A DNA stretch of 64,000 nt from Desulfobaccales bacterium (lineage in GTDB: Bacteria > Desulfobacterota > Desulfobaccia > Desulfobaccales > 0-14-0-80-60-11), in assembly GCA_052326585.1 (NCBI GenBank), contig JBKQLU010000048.1:6590-70589 (forward strand). Reading direction: 5' to 3'. Shown one piece after another: positions 556 through 11,018 of the stretch. Each line of letters begins with the position of its first letter. Position 1 is the first letter of the stretch. The notes below the pieces were generated by a model. It was not told where the DNA came from. It saw nothing but the letters and a program-made list of their open reading frames with translations, and did no database searches. The translations under genes were made by a program, and so were the position numbers.

Positions 556-1131
556 TCAACTCGCAAACCCTCGCCAGCAGACGATCGCCATCCCCATGGC
601 CATGGCTACCGCGTAGGGAATTACCTCGGATTTTTCTCGGGCCGCGGGGGCCGGCGCGCCGCGGGGGCCGGCGTGGGGACGCAATAGCACCCAGCCCACC
701 AGAAAGTCCCAGCCCCGCTTGATTCGGCTCCAGAGCGCCCCCCGCCACCAGAGAACCAGAATCACCAGGAACACTCCCGAAAAGGCCATATAAGCAAAGA
801 GAAAAAGGGTCTGCCAGACTCCCAGCCATGTCCCCAGGGCAGCCAGGGCCTTGACATCCCCGGCCCCCATACCGCCTTTCAGATAGAAGGGGATTAGCAA
901 TGCGAAGCCCAAAACCATCCCCAAAAGTCCATCGGTCAATCCGGCCAGGCCGTTAAACCCCAACTGATAGCCCAACCCCGCCAAGGCGCAGCACAGGTTG
1001 AGGTAATTGGGAATACGCCTGGTCCTGGCATCGTTCCAGCCCATAACCAGTGCGAATAACAGCGGCAGGACCAGCTGCGGGTGAGTCTTGGAGAGAGTGA
1101 GGCCTATCAGATTCAGCCATTCGGGGCGCAT
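556..1131 (-). CDS. A24-family type IV prepilin peptidase (CpaA-like)
   Basis: ATG at 1131. The protein is polytopic. 'WNDARTRRIPN' and 'GGMGAGDVKALAALG' match the two Asp-containing active-site motifs of A24 prepilin peptidases. Confidence 0.65.
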   Translation of the reverse strand: MRPEWLNLIGLTLSKTHPQLVLPLLFALVMGWNDARTRRIPNYLNLCCALAGLGYQLGFNGLAGLTDGLLGMVLGFALLIPFYLKGGMGAGDVKALAALGTWLGVWQTLFLFAYMAFSGVFLVILVLWWRGALWSRIKRGWDFLVGWVLLRPHAGPRGAPAPAAREKSEVIPYAVAMAMGMAIVCWRGFAS

Positions 1132-1354
1132 GTCAGATCCTGATCAGTTGGCCGACGGCCATTTATTCCTATCGGCGCAGGTAAACGCTATATTAATATA
1201 AAAGCCTGCGGCTCTGAACCTGAAAATCTTATATCAAGATAGTCCGAAAGCATGATGCCGGCCGGATTGAATAGTATCAAAGGGCGGGGCCGGTGGCAAG
1301 GTTCGCAGCTATCGCGGCCAAAAATTCCAAAAAATTATAATTGTCGGGGCGCCC

Positions 1355-1384
1355 TTGAAATCCTGCGACAAATGTAGATAAAAT
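1355..1384 (+). promoter_or_regulatory. sigma-70-like promoter candidate (TTGAAA-18 nt-TAAAAT) upstream of the 1434 gene
   Basis: TTGAAA at 1355-1360 and TAAAAT at 1379-1384, in an AT-rich intergenic region about 50 nt before an SD (GGAGGAG) and the ATG at 1434. Confidence 0.3.
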
Positions 1385-1433
1385 ATTGTTAAGGAATCTG
1401 CCTTGCCATTCCGCGGTCAGGAAGGAGGAGATT

Positions 1434-2048
1434 ATGAAACGTCTGCTGCCACTAGTTTTAGGGGTGCTGCTCTTAGTCGGCAATAGTTCCGGGGTCCTGG
1501 CGGCAAGCGCCAAGGCCCTGGCCCAGCGTCAAGCTCAGGGGCTGATCCCCTTCAACCCGCCCGAGAAGTTCCTGGACGGAAATTTCGTGGCCGATGAACT
1601 GAACCCCTCATTTATTTTCGGTCCGGTGAAAACCTTTGTCGCCTCTCGCAAATGTCCCACCGCCTGGCTTATCGAAAAGGGGGACCCTGATCGCCTGGCC
1701 AAGCCGGGCAGCGCCGATAAGCTGGCGGAGTACACCCTCTATCTGGAGGAGGACTGCCCGGATAAAGTGGTCTATTATGTCTTCATTGACCAGAGCGGCC
1801 TGACCCCCCAGCAGTGGATCGACTGGCGGGCAAAATTCCACGGGCAGAGCAAGACGGGACCTGAGTTTTCCGAGACCAAATCCAAACTGGATACAGCCTG
1901 CACCGCGGGTTGCGGGGTAGGCGCCGAGTTGCGTTTTATCGAAAAAGACGGGGAACTCCAGTCCAAATCTCCGGAAGCAGTTCTGCGGGATGAACTGCAC
2001 TTTGCCCCGATCTATGATCTGAACCGGCAGCAGAAGATGGCCCAATAG
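1434..2048 (+). CDS. exported hypothetical protein (signal peptide, 6 Cys)
   Basis: ATG at 1434 is preceded by GGAGGAG. The N-terminus 'MKRLLPLVLGVLLLVGNSSGVLAASA' is a signal peptide. I recognised no family motif. Confidence 0.6.
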   Translation: MKRLLPLVLGVLLLVGNSSGVLAASAKALAQRQAQGLIPFNPPEKFLDGNFVADELNPSFIFGPVKTFVASRKCPTAWLIEKGDPDRLAKPGSADKLAEYTLYLEEDCPDKVVYYVFIDQSGLTPQQWIDWRAKFHGQSKTGPEFSETKSKLDTACTAGCGVGAELRFIEKDGELQSKSPEAVLRDELHFAPIYDLNRQQKMAQ

Positions 2049-2069: not shown

Positions 2070-3086
2070 ATGGCACAAAGGAGAACCAAGGTGGGTGCGG
2101 TGCAGAAGCGGACCGGCTACGGCATTATAGCCCTGCTGGGCTTGATCACTATCTGGCTGCTGTTTCAACAGGCCCGCTTCAACCCCGCGGTGCTCGTGGC
2201 CCTGCACCAGCCCCCGCCGCCAGGCCGGGCCCAGGCCGTCTCCGGCCAGGCCTTGCCGGCCACCGCCGCCCTGCTCCCCGAAGTCCCGGGCTTCAATCCC
2301 CTGGCCCCCATCGAGAGCTACGGCCCGGAAACCCTCTCCGACAAGATCGACGGCAAGGCTGATCTCTACCTGCCCGCGGGCTTCAAAGAGATGTCCTGCC
2401 GGAAATTCGGCCTGGATACCGGCGCCGAGAAGGCCTTCGTGGAAGTGTTTATCTATGATATGGGGTCGGCCGCCAATACCTTTGCCGTGTTCAGTGGACA
2501 ACGCCGTCCGGGTTCCCCCAGCATCCCCCTGACCGCCAATGCCTACGCCACCAGCAATGCCCTCTTTTTTACCCAGGGGCGTTATTATCTGGAGATTGTG
2601 GCTGACCGGGCCTCGGAAAAGCTGTCAGACGCACTTAAGGCATATGCCACCGCGCTCCTGGCCAAGATTCCCTCTGAGGGAGGACAGGCAAACCCGGCGT
2701 TGCTTTTTCCCAAGGAAGGTCTGGCGCCGGACACCGTGCGCCTGTTGGCCAGCGACGTCTTTTCCATGGAGGGCTTCAACGACGTGCTTACCGCAGAATA
2801 CCACCTGAAAAGCGGCAACGGCACGGCATTTATCGCCAGGCGCGGCGCCCCGGCCGAGGCCCGGGCCGAGGCGCGGCGTTATCTGGACTTCTTGGCCGCC
2901 AATGGTTACCAGAAAGTTCAGACTCCGGCCGCGGCCGGGGACATCTCGGTGCTGGCCCTGGATAATTCCTTTGAAGTGGTCTGGGTCCAGGGCCCGATCA
3001 TGGCCGGGGTGCATGACGCCACCTCGGTTCAGGCGGCCCTGGATCTCACCGCCCAATTGCGCCCCGCTCTCGAGGAAAAGCCGTGA
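2070..3086 (+). CDS. membrane-anchored hypothetical protein (single N-terminal TM helix, periplasmic body)
   Basis: TM segment 'GYGIIALLGLITIWLLF'. The stop overlaps the next gene's GTG (GTGA at 3083-3086). An alternative GTG start at 2091 has an AAGGAG SD. Confidence 0.6.
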   Translation: MAQRRTKVGAVQKRTGYGIIALLGLITIWLLFQQARFNPAVLVALHQPPPPGRAQAVSGQALPATAALLPEVPGFNPLAPIESYGPETLSDKIDGKADLYLPAGFKEMSCRKFGLDTGAEKAFVEVFIYDMGSAANTFAVFSGQRRPGSPSIPLTANAYATSNALFFTQGRYYLEIVADRASEKLSDALKAYATALLAKIPSEGGQANPALLFPKEGLAPDTVRLLASDVFSMEGFNDVLTAEYHLKSGNGTAFIARRGAPAEARAEARRYLDFLAANGYQKVQTPAAAGDISVLALDNSFEVVWVQGPIMAGVHDATSVQAALDLTAQLRPALEEKP

Positions 3087-4105
3087 AGCAACCCACGGAT
3101 GAAGAACGCCGGCTCTCCGGCGCCATGAACCGCCGGGATTTTCTGAAGCGCTTGGGGTACGCCTCGGTGGTGGCCCTGGCAGCCGGTGGCGGCGGACTGG
3201 CCCTTTATGACTCGAAAGGTCCGGCCTCTTCCGGGGCCCAGACGGTGTTGACCGGTTTGGGAGATTACAGCCTCCGGGGCAAATCTCCTGGGCCGGGGAA
3301 AATGGCCATCATCCGGGGCACTGACCGGGCGCTGATGTTCGAGCAGGGGGTGAAGGCCCTGGGAGGAATGGAGTCCTTTATCCAGAAGGGCGACCGGGTG
3401 CTCATCAAGGTCAACGCCGCCTTCGCCACGCCGCCCTCCTTAGGGGCCACCACCCACCCGGAAATACTCGCCGCGGTGGCCGGCCTCTCTATTAAGGCCG
3501 GGGCGGCCCAGGTGCTGGTTACCGATAACTCCATAAGCGATCCCGACAGTTGCTTCGAGATCAGCGGGCTGGCCGGCGCGGCTCGAACTGCCGGGGCCCG
3601 GATCATTGTCCCCCGGCCCTCCCTGTTTGCCCCCGTCAGCCTGCCAAAGGGCAAGCTTATCGAGGATTGGCCCGTTATGGCCGGGGTCTTCCAGGGAGTG
3701 ACCAAGGTCATGGTGGTGAGCCCGGTCAAGGATCACCACCGCGCCGGGGCCTCCATGATCCTGAAGAATTATTACGGATTCCTGGGCGGACGGCGCAACG
3801 TCTTTCACCAGGATATTAACGGCATCATCACCGAGCTGGCGCAACTTATGAAGCCCACTCTGTGCGTCCTGGACGGCACGGTGAGCATGATCGCCAACGG
3901 CCCCACCGGCGGTTCCCTGGCCGATTTGAAGGAGACTGGCACCATGGTGGTGTCCACCGACCCCGTGGCCGCCGATGCCGTAGGCGTGGAACTTTTGGGC
4001 CGTTCCCTGGCCGACGTGCCTTACATCCTCATGGCTGGCAAAGCCGGGGCCGGCCAGGCCGACTATCACCAGCTCAACCCGGTGCTTCTCAACGCTAGCA
4101 CTTAA
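3083..4105 (+). CDS. DUF362 domain protein with twin-arginine (Tat) signal
   Basis: 'MNRRDFLKRLGYASVVALAAGGGG' carries the Tat motif RRxFLK. 'GDRVLIKVNAAF...ATTHPEILAAV...AAQVLVTDNS' resembles the DUF362 core. The start could instead be the ATG at 3125. Confidence 0.65.
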   Translation: MKQPTDEERRLSGAMNRRDFLKRLGYASVVALAAGGGGLALYDSKGPASSGAQTVLTGLGDYSLRGKSPGPGKMAIIRGTDRALMFEQGVKALGGMESFIQKGDRVLIKVNAAFATPPSLGATTHPEILAAVAGLSIKAGAAQVLVTDNSISDPDSCFEISGLAGAARTAGARIIVPRPSLFAPVSLPKGKLIEDWPVMAGVFQGVTKVMVVSPVKDHHRAGASMILKNYYGFLGGRRNVFHQDINGIITELAQLMKPTLCVLDGTVSMIANGPTGGSLADLKETGTMVVSTDPVAADAVGVELLGRSLADVPYILMAGKAGAGQADYHQLNPVLLNAST

Positions 4106-4152
4106 GATAGTGCATACCTCATACACATATAAGGATTATAAATTAGGACAAA

Positions 4153-5373
4153 ATGACCAATCGAGTGACACTTGAGTGTGATTCATGTGGGACAAGGATA
4201 ATTACTAGGACTCAGATTGGATGGGGTGACTCCCAGATACACTCATTTCCATGTCCTGTCTGTGGCATAGGGATCACGTACAAGGTAATACTCGATCAAA
4301 AAAAAATTACTGTTAAATATGATCCCAAACCTGAGAATGCACATTGGGTCGATTCTGAAATCGGCGCTAATCATGTGGTTAATTTTAATGCTGAGTTACT
4401 AATACCTGAGTACGCAATAACGCATCCATTTTTAAGTTCATTTATTTCTGTTTGTCATCATTTCAAAAATTGGCCACATTTTCAACGTCAAGAATTGGCT
4501 AGGTTAAATTGGCGAAAAAATATTTGGCCCATTACAAAACGCTTACCAATACACTTTGAAAAAGGCAATTGGAAGTTATTTGATTCTGATGCCGCCAAAA
4601 TTGGCGAGTCAACCAAAGAAAATTCAATCATATCTCGCTTAGAGCTACTAAGGCATATTTACGATGTTCCCATCTCTTGGATGCTTTACCCTGATTTTTC
4701 TCGTCGCTCAAGAATAAGCCAGCGTATTGCTTTGGCTTCATCAATATCTGTGACTCTTATGAACCAGATTAGCTCTGATTTTAATGCATCTGGGCGTTTG
4801 AAGGAGATTTGGCGGCAACTTCAGCATTTTCATGATTCTTTCGTGAATTGCTTTCCATATTTGAGCCCTCTTCTTCAGCCAAAGATTTATTGGGGGGGAA
4901 AAGGCAATTTAGTTGACTATGTGGTCTGTGATAAACGTTTTGGTCCTTTAAAAAATTTTTATATTGAATGCTTTGAAACTTTTTGTCGTTTATCTGTAAT
5001 TGCATCATCTATTGAAGCAATTATATTCTATCAAAAATTAGAAATACCCACTAAAAAGGGTAGTCTTGATTTATGGTCCTTTGAAAAACTGCCTAATGCA
5101 AATAAGGGTAAGCATTTAATTAAATTCCCTATTGCTGACCTTTTTGTATCTTTTATGGATACCTCATTGCGTAATGGAATAGGACACAATTCCGCAAAAT
5201 ATGACTCTTCAAATGATGAAGTGGTGTGCATTCAACAATCTGGTAGTGCATTGATTGAGGAAAGAATACACTATACAATTTTTTGCGATAAAGTTTTGGA
5301 ACTCGCGTCGGTCCTTTTTCATAGTGAAGAATATTTTTTCACTTTATTAACAAATGCCGGCGGTATCTTGTAA
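4153..5373 (+). CDS. orphan zinc-ribbon protein with C-terminal HEPN-like RNxxxH motif (putative RNase toxin or defence protein)
   Basis: A 406-aa ORF fills an AT-rich insert (hand counts 23-47% G+C per 60 nt). The N-terminus has C9xxC12...C34xxC37. 'SLR340NGIGH345N' matches the HEPN Rx4-6H signature with Asn after Arg, and the motif lies in the C-terminal part of the protein (R340 of 406 aa). A weaker second match is 'R221QLQHFH227'. The ORF is clearly coding. The function is inferred. Confidence 0.7.
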   Translation: MTNRVTLECDSCGTRIITRTQIGWGDSQIHSFPCPVCGIGITYKVILDQKKITVKYDPKPENAHWVDSEIGANHVVNFNAELLIPEYAITHPFLSSFISVCHHFKNWPHFQRQELARLNWRKNIWPITKRLPIHFEKGNWKLFDSDAAKIGESTKENSIISRLELLRHIYDVPISWMLYPDFSRRSRISQRIALASSISVTLMNQISSDFNASGRLKEIWRQLQHFHDSFVNCFPYLSPLLQPKIYWGGKGNLVDYVVCDKRFGPLKNFYIECFETFCRLSVIASSIEAIIFYQKLEIPTKKGSLDLWSFEKLPNANKGKHLIKFPIADLFVSFMDTSLRNGIGHNSAKYDSSNDEVVCIQQSGSALIEERIHYTIFCDKVLELASVLFHSEEYFFTLLTNAGGIL

Positions 5374-5397
5374 GGGATATCCCATAGGCCAAAGTTC

Positions 5398-7134
5398 ATG
5401 CGCATCGTCACCGTCCGCCGCATCAGCCAGATCTTCTTCCTGGGACTCTTTCTCTGGTTCTGCATCACGGCCACCCTGGGGACCGCCTGGTGGCAGTTGC
5501 GGGGCTGGCCCATCAACTGGATACTGAGCCTGGACCCCCTTACCGCTCTGGCCACCATTCTCGCCACGCACACCTTCTACGCGCCCCTCACCTGGGCCCT
5601 GGCAGCCGCCATTCTGACCCTGTTCGTGGGCCGCTTCTTCTGCGGATTTGCCTGCCCCATGGGCACGATCAACCATTTTACCGGCTGGCTGGGGCGGCTG
5701 GGCCAGAACCCGGCGGCGCGGGAGGAGGCCAATCGCCACCGCCGGCTGCAGGCCTGCAAATATTACCTCTTGATCGCCCTGCTGGGACTGGCCTGCCTGG
5801 GCTCGGTGCAGACCGGAATTTTTGACCCGCTGCCCCTGGTGCACCGCAGCGTCAACCTGGCCCTGGCCCCCTTAGCCGATAACCGTCTGGGGGTGCTCAA
5901 CGACGTGCCCCGCTTTTACGCCTCGGCCTGGCTGCTGGGGGTCGTATTCCTGGCGGCGGTGGGCTTGAACCTGGCCCTGCCGCGCTTCTTCTGCCGCTTT
6001 CTCTGTCCCCTGGGGGCATTGTTCGGCCTGCTGAGCCGTTTCACGCCCTGGCGCATCGGCAAGGCCGCGGGCAACTGCGGCGATTGCCATATCTGTGAGC
6101 AATACTGCGAAGGGGCCTGCCGTCCCTCGGGAAGATTCATCGGCAGCGAGTGCGTCTTGTGCTTTAATTGCCTGGACCGCTGCCCGGCCGGCCGGGTCAC
6201 CTTTGCCACCAAACCCTCGGCTGCCGGGGAGGCCGGGTTGCCGGACCTCTCCAGGCGCGGCATGGTTCTGGGCGGGGCCGGCCTGCTGCTGGCCTCCATG
6301 TGGGGCGTCGGCCGGCTGGCCGGGACCGACCGCGATCCCCACCTCATCCGGCCTCCGGGGGCCCTGGACGAAGAGCGCTTCTTAAGCCGTTGCCTCCGTT
6401 GTGGCCAATGCATGCGCATTTGCCCCGGCAACATCATCCAGCCCGCCCTGTTCGAGGCCGGGGTGCAGGGGTTGTGGACCCCCGCGGTCAACTACCGGAT
6501 CGGCAGCAGCGGCTGCCTCGTCAATTGCATCGCCTGCGGCCAGGTCTGCCCCACTGCGGCCATCCGGCCCTTGAGTCTGGATGAGAAGAAAGGACTGGGC
6601 CAGTTCGCCAGCCAAGGGCCCATCCGTATGGGCATAGCCTTCGTGGACCGCGGCTGCTGCCTGCCCTGGGCCATGGACCGGCCTTGCCTGGTCTGCCAGG
6701 AATTATGTCCCGTGAGCCCCAAGGCCATCTTCACCCGCACCGTGTTCAACACCCTCAGGGACGGCCAGGCTGTGGCGGCCAAGTCCCGGGGACCCGCAGC
6801 AGTGGACCTGGAAGCCGCCATCCCGGTGACGGTTAATCTGGCCAGCGGAGACTACTACCTGCGCCCCACCGGCGACCTTGAGGCTGCCCTGAGACGCATT
6901 ACCGGCTCTGCCGGAACCAATCTGACCCTGGAGAGCCCCCTGCCCGGGAAGGGTCTTCCGGACACCGGGGGGCGGGTAGATATTTTGGTGCGCTTGCAGC
7001 GTCCTTTTGTGGACGCCGCCAAATGTACCGGCTGCGGCATGTGCGAGCATGAATGCCCGATATCGGGCCGGCGCGCCATCCGTGTTTACAGTGAGAACGA
7101 ATCCCGTTCCCGCCCGGGGCGCATGCTCATTTAG
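5398..7134 (+). CDS. membrane-bound polyferredoxin (NapH/MauN-like N-terminal domain plus multiple 4Fe-4S domains)
   Basis: N-terminal TM helices carry the CX3CP motifs 'CGFACPMG' and 'CRFLCPLG'. Six or more CxxCxxCxxxCP-type clusters follow (CLRCGQCMRICP, CIACGQVCP, CLVCQELCP, CTGCGMCEHECP and others). Confidence 0.8.
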   Translation: MRIVTVRRISQIFFLGLFLWFCITATLGTAWWQLRGWPINWILSLDPLTALATILATHTFYAPLTWALAAAILTLFVGRFFCGFACPMGTINHFTGWLGRLGQNPAAREEANRHRRLQACKYYLLIALLGLACLGSVQTGIFDPLPLVHRSVNLALAPLADNRLGVLNDVPRFYASAWLLGVVFLAAVGLNLALPRFFCRFLCPLGALFGLLSRFTPWRIGKAAGNCGDCHICEQYCEGACRPSGRFIGSECVLCFNCLDRCPAGRVTFATKPSAAGEAGLPDLSRRGMVLGGAGLLLASMWGVGRLAGTDRDPHLIRPPGALDEERFLSRCLRCGQCMRICPGNIIQPALFEAGVQGLWTPAVNYRIGSSGCLVNCIACGQVCPTAAIRPLSLDEKKGLGQFASQGPIRMGIAFVDRGCCLPWAMDRPCLVCQELCPVSPKAIFTRTVFNTLRDGQAVAAKSRGPAAVDLEAAIPVTVNLASGDYYLRPTGDLEAALRRITGSAGTNLTLESPLPGKGLPDTGGRVDILVRLQRPFVDAAKCTGCGMCEHECPISGRRAIRVYSENESRSRPGRMLI

Positions 7135-7166: not shown

Positions 7167-8408
7167 ATGAGCCGTAGAACTAAAGGAACCGACCTTACCC
7201 GCAGGCAGTTCGTGACCACCGTCGGCCTCGCCGGCCTCGCCGGCCTCGCCGTCGCAGGAGCCGGCGCCACCGGAGCGCTTGCCGCCCCGGAGCCGCCGGC
7301 TGGAGCGGCCCAGGCCGAGACCATGCCCAAACGCCAACTGGGAAAGACCGGGGTGGACGTATCTGTCCTGGCCCTGGGCGGCATGATTGACACCATCAAC
7401 AACCAACTGCTCCTCAGGCAGGCCCTGAAATTGGGCATCACCTACTGGGACACGGCCGAGTCCTACGGCAACGGCCTGGGCGAGGAAGGCTACGGCCGCT
7501 TCCTGGCCCGCAACCCGGAGGCTCGCAAGGAGATCTTCCTGGTCACCAAGCTTCACCCCACTAGCGACCTCGCCGCGCGCCTGGATAGCTCTCTGAAGAG
7601 GCTGCAAACCAACTATGTGGATGCCTTATTCGTCCCCCACGGCCTCGCGGACATCGGAGAACTGACGCCGGCTATCAAGGATTTTGCCGCGGAGATGAAG
7701 AAGGCCGGCAAGATTAAATTCTTCGGGTTCAGCAGCCACAGCAACATGGCGGACAATCTGCTGGGCGCGGCCAAACTGGGCTGGATCGATGTGGTGATGA
7801 TGACCTACAATTTCCAGTTCTTGAACGACCCCAAGATGAAAGAAGCCATCGACGCCGCGGCCAAAGCCGGTATCGGGCTGGTGGCCATGAAGTCTCAGGC
7901 CGGCAGGCCGGGGAAGCATGAAATCGGCGACAAGGTCAAGGAAGAAATGATCCAGAGCTTCCTGCAGCGGGGCTTCACCGACAAGCAGGCCAAACTCAAG
8001 GTCATATGGGAGACCCCCCAAATCGCCAGTCTCTGCTCCCAGATGCCCAACCTGACCATCCTTTCGGCCAACGTGGCCGCGGCCCGGGACCTGACCAAAC
8101 TGGCCCGGGAGGACCTGGAATCCTTGCGCCGCTATGCCCTGGAGACGAAATCAGAATACTGCGCCGGCTGCGGCAAAATCTGCCAGGAGGCCCTGGGCGG
8201 GGCCGTACCCGTAAACGAGGTCATGCGCTGCCTCATGTACTACCGGGAGTACGGCGAGCCGGAACTGGCCAAACTGACCTTTGCGGGGCTGCACCCGGAG
8301 CTGCGGCAGCGCTTGGCCGAAGTCGATTACTCCCGGGCCGAGCAAGCCTGCCCCCAGGGACTGGCCATCGGCGAGCTCATGCGCCAGGCCCGCGAATTAT
8401 TGGCTTAG
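7167..8408 (+). CDS. aldo/keto reductase with Tat signal peptide and Cys-containing C-terminal extension
   Basis: Tat motif 'TRRQFVTTVGLAGLAGLAVAG'. AKR core 'GITYWDTAESYGNGLGEEGYGRFL'. C-terminal 'CAGCGKICQE...RCLMYYREYGE'. Confidence 0.8.
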   Translation: MSRRTKGTDLTRRQFVTTVGLAGLAGLAVAGAGATGALAAPEPPAGAAQAETMPKRQLGKTGVDVSVLALGGMIDTINNQLLLRQALKLGITYWDTAESYGNGLGEEGYGRFLARNPEARKEIFLVTKLHPTSDLAARLDSSLKRLQTNYVDALFVPHGLADIGELTPAIKDFAAEMKKAGKIKFFGFSSHSNMADNLLGAAKLGWIDVVMMTYNFQFLNDPKMKEAIDAAAKAGIGLVAMKSQAGRPGKHEIGDKVKEEMIQSFLQRGFTDKQAKLKVIWETPQIASLCSQMPNLTILSANVAAARDLTKLAREDLESLRRYALETKSEYCAGCGKICQEALGGAVPVNEVMRCLMYYREYGEPELAKLTFAGLHPELRQRLAEVDYSRAEQACPQGLAIGELMRQARELLA

Positions 8409-8516: not shown

Positions 8517-8980
8517 CACTTTTCGAGTCAAAGGATAACCTGGGGTTGGGGGCGCCCACTCCATCTTTGCGTCTTTTGAAGGCTGAGGAGATGGCCGCTT
8601 CGGATAAAACCGGGGCGGCCATTTTCGTTCCATGGTCAGCGCCGCGTTTGACCGGGGCCGCGGCCAGACCCACCTCACCCCGCAAAATTAATCTGAGACC
8701 TAAAGTATTCGCTGGAATAAGCCGAATATCCAGCCTACGGGAGGTTCTCTTACGAACGGAGGGGAGCGCAGGCCTGGCAGCATCAGCATCTGACTGGAAT
8801 AACTACCGATTGTCGATTTCCTTTGCTTTTCAAGAAGTTAATTGGTATAGTGTATGAAATCTCAGCAGTCAGGCAGGGTAACCTGCTGACTCGCGCCTGT
8901 GAAACCGGATCTCCTTCTCGAGCTCGTGCCCCTTTAAATCACCACTGATTTCACCAAGTTCCGCAGGAGGTAATCTAACC

Positions 8981-9457
8981 ATGAAAACTCTCATTATATT
9001 TCTATGTTTGACCACCACAGCCTGGGCGCAACCGTGGCCCCAAACCCCTCCCAGGATAGGGAGGCTGGAACTGAAGCAGGAGTATTGGGACTGCATCAAG
9101 AAAGCTGCCAAGAAGTATCAAATTTCTCCGTACCTGATTCAGGCGGTATGCGCAATTGAAAGCCGCTTTAATCAAGAAGCGAGATCGTCTCATGGAAAAT
9201 GTGTTGGTCTTATGCAACTCCATGTTGGGACTGCTTCCGCATATGGAGTAGATCCATATGATCCGTATGATAATATCATGGGTGGAGCAGCGGTACTGGC
9301 CCACCTTATGCAAAAATATAACGGGGATATTCATCGGGTTTTACATGTCTATAATGCTACCTGCACCCGAGGCTATGAGCGGGAGGTTTTCCGGGCTTAT
9401 AGGCAGGCGCAGCTCGTGGAAACATCTTATTTGCCACCCGGCGGGCACAACAATTAG
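8981..9457 (+). CDS. exported lytic transglycosylase (SLT domain)
   Basis: Signal peptide 'MKTLIIFLCLTTTAWA'. 'AVCAIESRFNQEARSSHGKCVGLMQL' is the SLT catalytic-Glu motif (ES...GLMQ). SD AGGAGG lies upstream. The gene has visibly lower G+C than its flanks. Confidence 0.8.
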   Translation: MKTLIIFLCLTTTAWAQPWPQTPPRIGRLELKQEYWDCIKKAAKKYQISPYLIQAVCAIESRFNQEARSSHGKCVGLMQLHVGTASAYGVDPYDPYDNIMGGAAVLAHLMQKYNGDIHRVLHVYNATCTRGYEREVFRAYRQAQLVETSYLPPGGHNN

Positions 9458-9593
9458 ACTTGCATTCCCTTAAGGAGCGCTCCTGATCCCTCCTGGCAGC
9501 AGGAAAAAGAATGGTCGGAGGCCTTTATTGACCCGGCAGCCTGGCTGGGAGGGCATGACTTAAGCGAGGAGGCAAAGGCCAGAAGGGCGCAAT

Positions 9594-11018
9594 ATGCCAC
9601 TGCCGACCCATAAAACCAAGATCGTCGCCACCATCGGCCCGTCCTGTGAGTCTCCCGAAGTTCTGGGGAAGATAATCGCAGCCGGTATGAACGTGGCCCG
9701 GCTCAATTTTTCCCATGGCGATTTCGCCACCCACCGGCGTCTCATAGAGAACGTGCGGGCGGCGGCCGGGGCGGCGGGGCGGCGGGTGGCCATCCTGGCT
9801 GATCTCCCCGGCCCCAAGATGCGTATCGGCCAAATCTCCGGTGAGCCCATCGAGTTGAAGCCGGGGGATGCCTTTACCCTGACTACAGAGAAGATCACGG
9901 GCGACCAACGCCGCGCCGCGGTGACTTTCAGCCGCCTACCGGAGGTAGTGAAGCCCAGGGACACCCTGTTTCTGAATGACGGCCTCATTCAGCTAGAAGT
10001 TACCGATATTCATGGCAATAACTTGATTTGCCGGGTGATCGTCGGGGGCGAACTGCGCTCCAGGAAAGGCCTTAACCTTCCAGGCATCTCTTTGGGAATC
10101 AGCGCCTTCACCGACCATGACCGTGAGTGCTTGCAGCTGGCTCTGGAATGTGGGGTGGACGCGGTCAGCCAATCGTTCGTTGAGTCTGGCGAGGATGTTG
10201 CCGCGGTGCGGGAGGCCGCCCGGGCTCTCGGCCACCAGCCGTTCATCATCGCCAAGATAGAGCGCCGCAATGCCCTGAATAACCTGGACAGTATCCTCGC
10301 AGCGGCGGACGGCATCATGATTGCCCGGGGCGATCTGGGGGTGGAAGTCCCCATCGAGCAAATCGCCGGGGTGCAAAAACGACTCATGCGCCAGGCGAAC
10401 CTGCTGGGGAAACCGGTGATTACGGCCACCCAGATGTTGGAGTCCATGGTGGCCAACCCCCGGCCCACCCGGGCGGAGGCTACCGATGTAGCCAACGCCA
10501 TTTTGGATGGCACCGACTGCGTCATGCTTTCAGAAGAGTCGGCCATGGGCCAATACCCGGTAGAAGCAGTGGCCATGCTGGCCAAGATCGCGGCCGCCAT
10601 CGAACCTTTTCGGCCCGGAGAAGGGGTGAGAAAGATGCTCCGCCGGTCCGGAATGGATAGTCAAACCGGCTTCACGGATCTGATCGCCTTGAGCGTGGAT
10701 GCAACGCTGGAAAGGATCGCCCCAGCCGCGATATTCGTGCCCACCCGCAGCGGGGCTACGGCCCGGAGCCTCGCCCGTTTCCGGCCGCCGGTGTGGATCG
10801 TGGCAGTGAGTTCCCAGGAGGCCACCTGCCAGCAACTCCTCCTGACCTACGGGGTCCAGCCCGTCCACGAAGCGAACCACCCGGAGGACTGGAAAAACTA
10901 TGCGCGCCGCTATTTGCAAGCCAATGAGATGACTGGCGAAGTGGCGGTGCTGACCGAAGGCCCTTCCTCCAAGGATCCCGAGGCCAACAACCGCATGGAA
11001 CTCATTAACCTGCGATAG
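9594..11018 (+). CDS. pyk: pyruvate kinase
   Basis: 'KTKIVATIGPSCESPEVLGKIIAAGMNVARLNFSHGDF', 'MIARGDLGVEVP' and 'ATQMLESM' are canonical pyruvate kinase motifs. Confidence 0.95.
   Translation: MPLPTHKTKIVATIGPSCESPEVLGKIIAAGMNVARLNFSHGDFATHRRLIENVRAAAGAAGRRVAILADLPGPKMRIGQISGEPIELKPGDAFTLTTEKITGDQRRAAVTFSRLPEVVKPRDTLFLNDGLIQLEVTDIHGNNLICRVIVGGELRSRKGLNLPGISLGISAFTDHDRECLQLALECGVDAVSQSFVESGEDVAAVREAARALGHQPFIIAKIERRNALNNLDSILAAADGIMIARGDLGVEVPIEQIAGVQKRLMRQANLLGKPVITATQMLESMVANPRPTRAEATDVANAILDGTDCVMLSEESAMGQYPVEAVAMLAKIAAAIEPFRPGEGVRKMLRRSGMDSQTGFTDLIALSVDATLERIAPAAIFVPTRSGATARSLARFRPPVWIVAVSSQEATCQQLLLTYGVQPVHEANHPEDWKNYARRYLQANEMTGEVAVLTEGPSSKDPEANNRMELINLR

What the first reader, a model, noticed from the sequence alone, without database searches (positions are those of the whole stretch)
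4106..5397. AT-rich 1.3-kb single-gene insertion inside a GC-rich redox operon: zinc-ribbon plus HEPN-like (RNxxxH) orphan, candidate stand-alone defence or toxin gene
Composition: hand counts of 60-nt lines inside 4200-5040 give 23-47% G+C. A flanking line (3961-4020) gives about 72%.

Placement: the low-GC block begins right at the stop of the Tat-DUF362 gene (4105). It ends 24 nt before the ATG of the NapH-like polyferredoxin (5398). One gene has therefore been dropped precisely into an intergenic gap of a co-directional operon.

Protein features:
- The 406-aa product has an N-terminal C9xxC12...C34xxC37 zinc ribbon.
- In the C-terminal part of the protein it has 'SLR340-N-G-I-G-H345-N'. 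This matches the HEPN RNase signature Rx4-6H with the usual polar residue after Arg, as seen in Abi, Cas13 and toxin HEPNs.
- A weaker Rx5H match (R221QLQHFH227) could hint at a second motif.

Context: I see no partner gene (antitoxin, ATPase, methylase), integrase or obvious target-site duplication. The only junction feature is a weak imperfect inverted repeat, CTTAAGATA at 4101-4109 versus TATCTTgtAAG at 5364-5374.

I do not recognise the protein as a named family.
Basis: partly seen in the sequence, partly recalled or inferred. Interest (0 to 1): 0.8.

Follow-up and report, generated by a model that had tools for sequence, protein, structure and literature searches.

The report
Orphan zinc-ribbon, HEPN-like RNase gene insert
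A single AT-rich foreign gene sits between two genes of a GC-rich redox operon; it encodes an uncharacterised protein with a zinc ribbon and a probable HEPN-type RNase centre (likely a stand-alone toxin or anti-phage gene), and it is old, well conserved, and present in only a few relatives, always at exactly the same spot.

Summary
A 406-aa ORF (4153-5373) lies in a 1272-bp block (4115-5386) of 36.5% GC, against 62% elsewhere in the window (z = -7).

It is a true insertion. Sixty related metagenome loci have the DUF362 gene followed directly by the polyferredoxin gene, typically across a 13-20-nt spacer. Five lineages carry the gene, always with the same junctions, and a 4-5-bp GGGCA duplication flanks the insert.

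It is not recent. Its dS equals or exceeds that of the flanking gene in all six pairs, and dN/dS is 0.14 against 0.22-0.24 for the flanks. GC3 is 0.27-0.30 in the two copies measured. Each occupied locus has a closer empty relative, so there were at least five gain or loss events.

The protein family has about 250 clusters, no Pfam or PADLOC match, and no conserved partner gene. Members occur in prophages, IS-rich plasmid regions and defence-like islands.

C12, C37, E275, R340, N341 and H345 are invariant down to 16-20% identity. E275-x3-R279 plus R340-N-x3-H345 at a helix end matches published HEPN criteria. Sequence links to HEPN families are only marginal, and Foldseek finds no PDB neighbour for a pLDDT-95 model.

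Best reading: a new HEPN-like stand-alone toxin or abortive-infection gene, architecturally analogous to RAZR. The second motif and the junction inverted repeat are rejected.

The parts
4115..5386 (+). Inserted 1272-bp AT-rich block: 38-nt leader, ORF, 13-nt tail
   Evidence: Boundaries come from aligning occupied junctions (window, L008, L009, L006, L086) with 60 empty sites. GC is 0.365 against 0.619 elsewhere, z = -7.
4110..4114 (+). Left copy of the 5-bp junction repeat (GTGCA here; TGGCA in L009, AGGCA in L008 and L086)
   Evidence: The empty-site spacer GTCAC-GGGCA-ACCCCTC is split, so xGGCA lies on both sides of the insert.
5387..5391 (+). Right copy of the 5-bp junction repeat (GGCCA here; GGGCA in L008 and L009)
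4145..4148 (+). Shine-Dalgarno-like AGGA, 4 nt upstream of the ATG
   Evidence: Read directly from the sequence. The leader AGGACAA(A/G)-ATG is conserved in L008 and L009.
4153..5373 (+). ORF of 406 aa: uncharacterised family, zinc ribbon plus HEPN-like centre
   Evidence: There are 81 close and about 251 representative homologues. dN/dS is 0.14. The AF2 model has pLDDT 94.9 and pTM 0.93.
4153..4392 (+). N-terminal beta-rich domain (residues 1-80) with a Cys4 zinc ribbon (C9, C12, C34, C37)
   Evidence: C12 and C37 are invariant and C9 and C34 are 47/48. DSSP shows strands 2-79. Weak hits to zinc-ribbon families HVO_2753/DUF1610 and Lar-like phrog_6422.
4408..4788 (+). Central all-helical domain (residues 86-212), no detectable relatives
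   Evidence: DSSP helices 86-212. No family or fold hits.
4795..5355 (+). C-terminal HEPN-like domain (residues 215-401): helices 215-246 and 263-293, an insert, helix 337-344, a beta-hairpin 349-373, helix 374-401
   Evidence: DSSP. The layout matches the HEPN description in PMC3710099. Marginal Pfam hits to HepT-like and pEK499_p136. hhalign P = 5e-4.
4975..4989 (+). E275-T-F-C-R279: Ex3[KR] motif on the long helix 263-293
   Evidence: E is 48/48. R/K at +4 is 44/44 in the core family and 28/48 in the deep set.
5170..5187 (+). R340-N-G-I-G-H345: Rx4H motif with Asn after Arg, at the end of helix 337-344
   Evidence: R, N and H are 48/48 invariant down to 16-20% identity. DSSP.
3083..4105 (+). 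Upstream operon gene, DUF362 family
   Evidence: Pfam PF04015, E 3.6e-36.
5398..7134 (+). Downstream operon gene, membrane polyferredoxin (Fer4_5 and other Fer4 domains)
   Evidence: Pfam.

Best explanation
The block 4115-5386 is a horizontally acquired single-gene cassette. It entered the 17-nt spacer between the DUF362 and polyferredoxin genes of a conserved operon in an ancestor of several Desulfobaccales-like lineages, duplicating about 5 bp (GGGCA).

Its product is a stand-alone conflict-system protein with three parts:
- an N-terminal Cys4 zinc-ribbon/beta domain and a central helical domain, inferred to act as sensor or regulator;
- a C-terminal divergent HEPN-type domain whose E275-x3-R279 and R340-N-x3-H345 residues are inferred to form a metal-independent RNase centre, composite across a dimer.

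By analogy with RAZR and other HEPN abortive-infection or toxin proteins, it would be held inactive until a trigger (probably a phage component) is sensed. It would then cleave RNA and arrest the cell.

Shown here: foreign composition, exact insertion site, age, strong purifying selection, presence/absence polymorphism, invariant residues, no partner gene, and mobile or defence-like contexts of homologues.

Inferred: the HEPN fold, RNase activity, the trigger, and the defence phenotype.
For: Insertion:
- Sixty empty sites against five occupied ones, all with identical junctions and an xGGCA repeat on both sides.

Age and selection:
- dS of the gene is 0.39-1.16 against 0.28-0.84 for DUF362 over the same six pairs, in nearly the same rank order.
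- dN/dS is 0.14 against 0.22-0.24 for the flanks.

Family:
- 81 homologues by word search and about 251 representative clusters, all about 400-460 aa with the same architecture.

Catalytic-type signature:
- C12, C37, E275, R340, N341 and H345 are invariant in 48 sequences down to 16-20% identity. Ex3[KR] holds in 44/44 of the core family.
- The AF2 model is very confident (pLDDT 94.9), and the motif sits at the end of a helix followed by a loop, a hairpin and a last helix. This matches the HEPN definition in PMC3710099. A hairpin directly after the motif has precedent in Csx1.

Weak sequence links, all to HEPN families:
- HepT-like, E 9.5e-4.
- pEK499_p136 is the only family hit by more than one C-terminal domain.
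- hhalign against a pEK499_p136 alignment scores 29.8, against 13.6 +/- 2.8 for column shuffles (0/100 reach it).

Context:
- No conserved neighbour.
- Homologues lie inside a prophage between structural genes, next to TIR and AAA_15/21 genes, near Mrr nucleases, methyltransferases and PADLOC candidates PDC-S46 and HEC-03B, beside tandem serine recombinases in viral contigs, and in IS-rich plasmid regions.
- Full-length match to phage family phrog_13366, E 1e-9.

Analogue:
- RAZR is a zinc finger plus divergent HEPN single-protein abortive-infection system (PMC13017515).
Against: - Foldseek finds no HEPN, and no neighbour of any kind, in the PDB for either the full model or the C-terminal domain model (best E 0.3, TM below 0.3), and none in BFVD.
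- No HEPN Pfam family reaches its threshold. No PADLOC model matches at E up to 10.
- hhalign probability is only 31%, and 2 of 100 block shuffles that keep short motifs reach the real score. The signal is essentially the motif region.
- A C-terminal profile search of 5.8 billion proteins found only the same family.
- The neighbourhood census is heterogeneous, not a clean defence-island enrichment, and includes housekeeping genes.
- In the window's own clade the gene sits in a metabolic operon and has been kept for a long time, which is unusual for fast-turnover defence genes.
- No experiment exists.
Confidence: 0.55

Rival explanations
1. The protein is the enzyme of its own mobility. On this reading it is a new kind of single-gene mobile element (homing-endonuclease-like or transposase-like) that inserts into, and excises precisely from, one specific spacer. 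The zinc ribbon would recognise DNA and the E...RNxxxH centre would cut nucleic acid.
For: - A 5-bp duplication flanks the insert.
- At least five presence/absence transitions occurred at exactly the same nucleotide position. Each occupied locus is closer to an empty one than to another occupied one.
- The closest occupied/empty pair (dS 0.13) shows no dip in flank identity at the junction, so no diverged DNA was co-imported.
- Family members sit as lone genes between conserved phage structural genes, as free-standing homing endonucleases do.
Against: - The copies are at least as diverged as their hosts' genes, with a congruent rank order, so there is no sign of recent spread.
- There are no terminal inverted repeats.
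- No DDE, HUH, Ser/Tyr recombinase, HNH, GIY-YIG or LAGLIDADG family is hit.
- There is one copy in the 64-kb window. Other family members occupy unrelated sites.
- The invariant residues fit a metal-independent RNase better than a DNA transposase.
- Exchange of presence and absence alleles by homologous recombination among close relatives explains the patchiness without any element-encoded activity.
Confidence: 0.1
2. The C-terminal domain is not a HEPN homologue. It is a new helical fold carrying a convergent E...RNxxxH centre. The protein may still be a toxin or nuclease of a conflict system, but it belongs to no known superfamily.
For: - A very confident model (pLDDT 94-95) has no Foldseek neighbour in the PDB or BFVD.
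- The family is isolated in profile searches.
- The hhalign signal is confined to about 29 columns around the motif.
Against: - Four independent HEPN criteria from PMC3710099 are met together: Rx4H, Asn after Arg, Ex3R on the preceding long helix, and the motif at a helix end before the last helix.
- The only recurrent marginal Pfam hits, out of about 24,700 models, are two HEPN families.
Confidence: 0.2
3. A phage-derived moron with a non-nucleolytic role. For example, a zinc-ribbon anti-restriction (Lar-like) or regulatory nucleic-acid-binding protein, in which the conserved R/N/H residues bind a ligand rather than catalyse cleavage.
For: - The N-terminus resembles Lar-like restriction alleviation proteins (phrog_6422, E 0.001) and small RNA-binding zinc ribbons.
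- The family occurs in prophages and viral contigs.
- Some HEPN domains are non-catalytic binding domains (PMC3710099).
Against: - Non-catalytic HEPN domains typically lose the Rx4-6H motif (PMC3710099). Here R, N, H and the upstream E are strictly invariant.
- The Lar-like match covers only the roughly 50-residue ribbon.
Confidence: 0.1
4. An accessory subunit or maturation factor of the DUF6599-DUF362-polyferredoxin-aldo/keto-reductase redox operon.
For: - It is co-directional, tightly spaced and co-inherited with the operon in five lineages, under purifying selection.
Against: - It is absent from 60 of 65 informative related operons, including the window's closest relatives.
- Homologues in other phyla have no such neighbours.
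- Its composition is foreign.
Confidence: 0.03

Closest known systems
RAZR / PD-T7-4 (ring-activated zinc-finger RNase; Nature 2026, PMC13017515)
   Same: Both are single-protein systems with an N-terminal Cys4 zinc ribbon followed by a divergent HEPN-type domain carrying conserved Arg and His. Both stand alone without a partner gene and are found on mobile or accessory DNA. RAZR's HEPN was itself recognisable only by remote methods.
   Different: - RAZR is about half the size, with a short linker (residues 66-79). This protein has an extra helical domain of about 125 residues.
- RAZR's catalytic pair is R146...H154 in a DUF4145 domain. Here the motif is Rx4H, with no DUF4145 or PADLOC match.
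- The trigger, oligomeric state and activity are unknown here.
pEK499_p136 HEPN family (PF18736; Anantharaman et al. 2013, PMC3710099)
   Same: It is the best profile-profile partner. LRNGIGH aligns with LRHSIAHF, and the following strand(s) and a conserved Phe before the last helix are collinear. It is the only Pfam family hit by more than one C-terminal domain. It is also a plasmid and defence-context family.
   Different: - p136 proteins are about 160-aa single-domain proteins without a zinc ribbon.
- The matches are far below Pfam's threshold (E 0.02).
- hhalign probability is 31%.
HepT (DUF86) toxins of HepT/MntA type VII toxin-antitoxin systems
   Same: They carry an Rx4H(xY) motif with Asn after Arg. 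One family member gives a marginal Pfam hit (E 9.5e-4). They are HEPN RNase toxins.
   Different: HepT is small and always paired with an MntA nucleotidyltransferase antitoxin. No partner gene is conserved here, and the Tyr follows at +5 rather than +2.
Free-standing homing endonuclease genes of phages (established knowledge)
   Same: Both are a lone AT-rich gene inserted in an intergenic gap between conserved co-directional genes, patchily present among close relatives at an identical position.
   Different: There is no match to any homing-endonuclease family. The copies are as old as the host lineages. The junction shows a duplication rather than a clean homing junction.

Membership tests
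HEPN superfamily (criteria from PMC3710099) | Conserved Rx4-6H motif | tested here: met
   R340 and H345 are invariant in 44/44 and 48/48 sequences, down to 16-20% identity.
HEPN superfamily (criteria from PMC3710099) | Polar residue (N, D or H) immediately after the Arg | tested here: met
   N341 is invariant, 48/48.
HEPN superfamily (criteria from PMC3710099) | Upstream conserved acidic residue in helix 2, typically Ex3[KR] | tested here: met
   E275 is 48/48. R279 or K is 44/44 in the core family and 28/48 in the deep set. It lies on helix 263-293.
HEPN superfamily (criteria from PMC3710099) | Motif at the end of helix 3 running into the loop, followed by a final helix, with an insert between helices 2 and 3 | tested here: met
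   DSSP of the AF2 models shows helix 337-344 with H345 as the first non-helical residue, an insert at 294-336, a hairpin at 349-373 and a helix at 374-401. A hairpin after the motif has precedent in Csx1. This rests on secondary structure only; coordinates could not be inspected.
HEPN superfamily (criteria from PMC3710099) | Four-helix up-down core that superposes on known HEPN structures | tested here: inconclusive
HEPN superfamily (criteria from PMC3710099) | Significant profile match to an established HEPN family | tested here: inconclusive
   HepT-like E 9.5e-4 (1 of 44 members). pEK499_p136 E 0.02 (2 of 26). hhalign P 5.3e-4, probability 31%. Column shuffles reach the score 0/100 times; 8-column block shuffles 2/100.
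HEPN superfamily (criteria from PMC3710099) | Metal-independent RNase activity from a dimeric composite site | not testable with these tools
   Needs biochemistry.
RAZR / PD-T7-4 | C-terminal DUF4145-type HEPN domain | tested here: not met
   No DUF4145 hit at E up to 10 for the protein, for 44 homologues or for 26 C-terminal domains. No PADLOC model hit at E up to 10. That PADLOC 2.0.0 holds a PD-T7-4 model rests on my own knowledge.
RAZR / PD-T7-4 | N-terminal Cys4 zinc ribbon | tested here: met
   C9, C12, C34 and C37 are conserved 47-48/48. Weak zinc-ribbon family hits.
RAZR / PD-T7-4 | Two-domain protein with a short conserved linker (residues 66-79) | tested here: not met
   This protein is 406 aa, with a helical domain of about 125 residues between the ribbon and the HEPN-like domain.
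RAZR / PD-T7-4 | Activation by phage ring-forming proteins; abortive infection | not testable with these tools
   Needs experiments.
Type II/VII toxin-antitoxin module | Conserved adjacent partner (antitoxin) gene | tested here: not met
   All-against-all clustering of +/-5 neighbours in 27 loci (25 with the gene located) found no cluster shared across lineages.
Insertion sequence / transposon | Target-site duplication | tested here: met
   xGGCA lies on both sides in L009, L008 and L086 (left side only for L086), and is decayed in the window. Occupied spacer halves total 20-22 nt, against 16-17 nt for empty spacers. A 4-5-bp microhomology cannot be excluded.
Insertion sequence / transposon | Terminal inverted repeats and a recognisable transposase or recombinase | tested here: not met
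   No terminal inverted repeat. No transposase, recombinase or nuclease family hit.

The most novel reading that the evidence does not exclude
The gene may be a new kind of minimal mobile or selfish unit. It would be a single ORF that toggles precisely in and out of one 17-nt operon spacer (at least five transitions, a 5-bp duplication, no diverged flanking DNA co-imported). It would also be actively held at GC3 0.27-0.30 inside genomes with GC3 0.71-0.83 over dS of about 1. That would imply either a precise insertion/excision activity encoded by the zinc-ribbon E...RNxxxH protein itself, or selection on AT-richness linked to its function, for example self-limiting cleavage of its own AU-rich mRNA or xenogeneic silencing of a toxic gene.
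Probability: 0.1. Interest if true: 0.85.

Novelty: new variant of a known kind. Interest (0 to 1): 0.5.

Why it matters
If the HEPN reading is right, this defines an uncharacterised family of single-protein RNase toxin or anti-phage genes. The family has about 250 clusters and is spread thinly across at least seven phyla, mostly in environmental metagenome-assembled genomes, and in prophages. Its architecture is new: ribbon, then a helical domain, then a HEPN-like domain. Foldseek found no PDB neighbour for its very confident predicted structure. It would broaden the 'zinc-finger sensor plus HEPN effector' theme just established by RAZR.

Separately, the locus is a clean natural experiment in gene gain and loss. 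The same cassette sits at one nucleotide-exact site and is as old as its host lineages. It is strongly conserved yet repeatedly present or absent, and it is still about 26 GC points below its hosts. That bears on how long defence or toxin genes persist, whether presence/absence polymorphisms are maintained by selection, and why some foreign genes do not ameliorate.

Tried and rejected
- **Second HEPN motif R221...H227:** not conserved (R221 is K in 20, R in 16; H227 is R in 32 of 44).
- **Junction inverted repeat CTTAAGATA/TATCTTgtAAG:** the left arm overlaps the DUF362 stop and differs in L009, L006 and L008. The right arm is the coding 3' end. This is chance.
- **Own promoter or terminator:** consensus scans found no more sites than in shuffles.
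- **Recent insertion:** rejected by synteny in five lineages and by dS.
- **Remnants of the gene in enlarged 'empty' spacers:** no similarity (best tblastn E 0.25). They hold other small repeats.
- **Recombination tract at the L008/L037 junction:** none seen.
- **Polarised substitution test for amelioration:** AT>GC 53 against GC>AT 16 at third positions, but the GC-rich control gene shows the mirror image (9 against 26). This is the common-to-rare parsimony artefact, so the test is inconclusive.
- **Sequence searches:** PDB by sequence and by profile gave nothing beyond a zinc ribbon. The C-terminal profile search found only the same family.
- **GenBank phages:** no tblastn hit.
- **Literature:** no paper mentions the RNGIGH motif as a protein motif, or phrog_13366; the single text hit was an unrelated paper.
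Full report
**1.

The window has an ATG-initiated ORF at 4153-5373 (+) encoding 406 aa. Composition:
- GC in 300-nt windows is 0.31-0.43 across 4051-5400, against 0.60-0.70 on both sides.
- The finding interval 4106-5397 is 36.5% GC. Equal-sized windows elsewhere average 61.9% (sd 3.6%, minimum 52%), giving z = -7.0.
- No other 1-kb bin of the 64 kb falls below 0.53.

The neighbours are as described: DUF6599 (2070-3086), DUF362 (3083-4105), a polyferredoxin with Fer4_5 and other Fer4 domains (5398-7134), and an aldo/keto reductase (7167-8408), all co-directional. The two CxxC pairs, R340-N-G-I-G-H345, R221QLQHFH227 and the two junction strings are all present.

**2. It is a true insertion, with nucleotide-exact boundaries**

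I searched JGI metagenomes with the DUF362 protein and retrieved 80 related loci.
- In 60 of them DUF362 is followed directly by the polyferredoxin gene.
- The gap is typically 13-20 nt, with the recurrent spacer TAA-GTCACGGGCAACCCCTC-ATG.
- One further locus (L086) carries the gene.
- With the window and three contigs found through the protein itself (L006/L007, L008, L009), five lineages are occupied.

All five share the same junctions. In L009 the left side keeps GTCACTGGCA and the right side keeps GGGCAACCCCTC. The two spacer halves total 22 nt against 17 nt in empty sites, so xGGCA is present on both sides. L008 and L086 show the same pattern (left side only for L086); the repeat has decayed in the window (GTGCA and GGCCA). 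The inserted block in the window is therefore 4115-5386 (1272 bp): a 38-nt leader with an AGGA ribosome-binding site, the ORF, and a 13-nt tail. There are no terminal inverted repeats.

**3. It is old, constrained and polymorphic**

| Measure | The gene | Flanking genes |
|---|---|---|
| dS, window vs L006 (NG86) | 0.89 | 0.82-1.04 |
| dS, all six occupied pairs | 0.39-1.16 | 0.28-0.84 (DUF362) |
| dN/dS, window vs L006 (NG86) | 0.14 | 0.22-0.24 |
| dN/dS, window vs L006 (YN00) | 0.066 | 0.10-0.12 |

The rank order of the six pairs is nearly the same for the gene and for DUF362. So the copies are at least as old as the splits between their hosts and are under strong purifying selection.

Occupancy nevertheless does not follow the host tree. 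Every occupied locus has an empty relative closer than any other occupied locus:

| Occupied locus | Nearest empty (dS) | Nearest occupied (dS) |
|---|---|---|
| L008 | L037, 0.13 | window, 0.28 |
| window | L039/L040, 0.18-0.19 | L008, 0.28 |
| L009 | L057, 0.16 | L086, 0.36 |
| L006 | L080, 0.47 | L009, 0.64 |
| L086 | 0.31-0.33 | L009, 0.36 |

At least five presence/absence transitions therefore occurred at one identical site. Between L008 and L037, flank identity does not dip at the junction, so no diverged DNA came in with the change.

The simplest account is one ancient insertion kept as a long-lived presence/absence polymorphism. Alleles would be exchanged among close relatives by homologous recombination, or lost by deletion between the short repeats. 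Repeated site-specific reinsertion is the alternative.

L008's copy has a 1-nt deletion in a T-run that removes the last 17 residues. This is either early decay or an assembly error.

**4. The composition has not drifted towards the host**

The gene is 35.5-37.4% GC in all four complete copies. GC3 is 0.30 in the window and 0.27 in L006, against 0.71-0.83 for the flanking genes. With dS near 0.9 between the window and L006, neutral host-like pressure should have raised GC3 noticeably (my estimate, not computed rigorously).

A polarised count gives 53 AT>GC against 16 GC>AT third-position changes. The GC-rich control gene gives the mirror image (9 against 26). This is the known parsimony bias, so the test is inconclusive.

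Homologues in other phyla are also below their surroundings in nearly every locus examined, by 0.03-0.22. A Pyrinomonadaceae copy is 0.39 in a 0.61 locus. This is unexplained. Possibilities include selection for low expression or silencing of a toxic gene. That is inference only.

**5. The protein family**

- No Pfam, PADLOC or informative NCBIfam match.
- A full-length match to phrog_13366, of unknown function (E 1e-9).
- The word-indexed search found 81 homologues. One is an identical protein from a Desulfobaccales MAG.
- The exhaustive representative search found 251 clusters at E up to 1e-3. Full-length members are about 400-460 aa with the same end-to-end architecture.
- Genome hits come from Myxococcota, Gemmatimonadota, Acidobacteriota, Binatia and Verrucomicrobiota MAGs, from IMG/VR viral contigs, and from Bacillus and Streptomyces plasmids.
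- No neighbour is conserved across lineages, so the gene stands alone.

Contexts of homologues:
- a prophage, where the gene sits between structural genes on the opposite strand;
- a Myxococcota island with TIR_2 and AAA_15/21-DUF3696 genes;
- viral contigs, where distant 480-509-aa members follow tandem large serine recombinases;
- Mrr-type nucleases, methyltransferases, IS21 and PADLOC candidates PDC-S46 and HEC-03B;
- IS-rich plasmid regions.

Housekeeping genes also occur nearby. This is a mobile or accessory signature rather than a formal defence-island enrichment.

**6. HEPN or not**

Conservation:
- In 44 homologues, R340, N341, G342, G344 and H345 are invariant, and the four Cys are at least 90% conserved.
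- In 48 sequences reaching 16-20% identity, the invariant set is C12, C37, E275, R340, N341 and H345.

Structure prediction:
- AlphaFold2 gives pLDDT 94.9 and pTM 0.93. The C-terminal domain alone gives pLDDT 94.4.

Here:
- E275-T-F-C-R279 lies on helix 263-293. E is 48/48. R/K is 44/44 in the core family.
- An insert occupies 294-336.
- R340-N-x3-H345 ends helix 337-344.
- A hairpin (349-373) and a long last helix (374-401) follow.

All sequence and secondary-structure criteria are met.

Homology evidence is weak but points one way:
- One member hits HepT-like (E 9.5e-4).
- The only Pfam family hit by more than one C-terminal domain is HEPN pEK499_p136 (E 0.02).
- I built that family from plasmid pEK499. 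hhalign aligns LRNGIGH with LRHSIAHF, with P = 5.3e-4 and probability 31%.
- The score is 29.8, against 13.6 +/- 2.8 for column shuffles (0/100 reach it). Motif-preserving block shuffles reach it 2/100 times.

Against:
- Foldseek finds no PDB or BFVD neighbour at all (best E 0.2-0.3).
- A C-terminal profile search retrieves only the same family.

I put the probability of a HEPN-superfamily domain at about 0.65-0.7.

The proposed second motif at 221-227 is not conserved. That is unproblematic, because HEPN sites are normally built by dimerisation.

**7. Mechanism and comparison**

The closest functional analogue is RAZR/PD-T7-4 (PMC13017515). There a Cys4 zinc-finger domain senses phage ring proteins and a divergent DUF4145-type HEPN cleaves RNA, causing abortive infection.

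The present protein shares the logic of ribbon, HEPN-like domain and no partner gene. It is not a member of that family:
- it has no DUF4145 or PADLOC match;
- it is twice the length;
- it has an additional helical domain;
- its motif is Rx4H rather than R146...H154.

I therefore propose a stand-alone sensor-effector RNase (toxin or abortive-infection type) as the most likely function, with confidence about 0.55 for the composite claim. Rivals:
- a new fold with a convergent centre (0.2);
- a self-mobilising nuclease (0.1);
- a non-catalytic phage moron (0.1);
- an operon accessory factor (0.03).

**8. Verdict**

This is a real, well-delimited foreign gene, and its family is uncharacterised. 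I found no paper that describes it. I classify it as a new variant of a known kind (zinc-ribbon plus HEPN-like single-gene conflict systems).

Its evolutionary behaviour is unusual and unexplained: ancient, constrained, toggled at a single site, and not ameliorated. Interest is moderate at 0.5. The biochemical class is expected. The fold isolation and the population genetics of the locus are the surprising parts.

Noticed in passing
L039/L041 (324 nt), L064 (250 nt), L061 (82 nt), L058 (710 nt) and about 15 other loci: the spacer between the DUF362 and polyferredoxin genes: The same intergenic spacer holds other lower-GC fillers (GC 0.40-0.66, most below 0.57) in about 20 'empty' relatives. 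Those inspected directly (L039/L041, L064, L061) carry CCCCTCACCCC...GGGG-type repeats unrelated to the gene. The site looks like an insertion hotspot.
   Followed up: partly
L025:10001-11233 (Pyrinomonadaceae MAG): A 28%-identical homologue in an unrelated phylum is also strongly AT-rich (GC 0.39 in a 0.61 locus). In nearly every locus examined the gene is below its surroundings.
   Followed up: partly
L008:2981-4222: The orthologue has a 1-nt deletion in a T-run near the 3' end, giving a premature stop that removes the last 17 residues. This may be incipient pseudogenisation or an assembly error. Its sister lineages L037 and L100 lack the gene.
   Followed up: partly
L033, L034, L035, L036 (IMG/VR contigs), match near 10001: Distant 480-509-aa family members sit immediately downstream of two to four tandem large serine recombinase genes at the edge of viral contigs.
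   Followed up: partly
L001:4897-9856 (Myxococcota MAG): The 59%-identical homologue lies just after a TIR_2 protein and an AAA_21/AAA_15/DUF3696 ATPase with a 168-aa partner. This is a defence-island-like cluster that I did not classify.
   Followed up: no
window 8700-9500: A second, milder low-GC patch (0.47-0.50) contains a 158-aa ORF (8981-9457) with an N-terminal hydrophobic segment. Not analysed.
   Followed up: no
window 1050-1500: A GC dip to 0.49-0.50 lies in the divergent intergenic region upstream of the operon (between ORFs ending at 1131 and starting at 1386). It is possibly a promoter region. Not analysed.
   Followed up: no
L119:3680-3985 (Streptomyces plasmid): A trypco2-family gene and several IS elements lie within 4 kb of the Streptomyces homologue. 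This is another conflict-system-type context.
   Followed up: no
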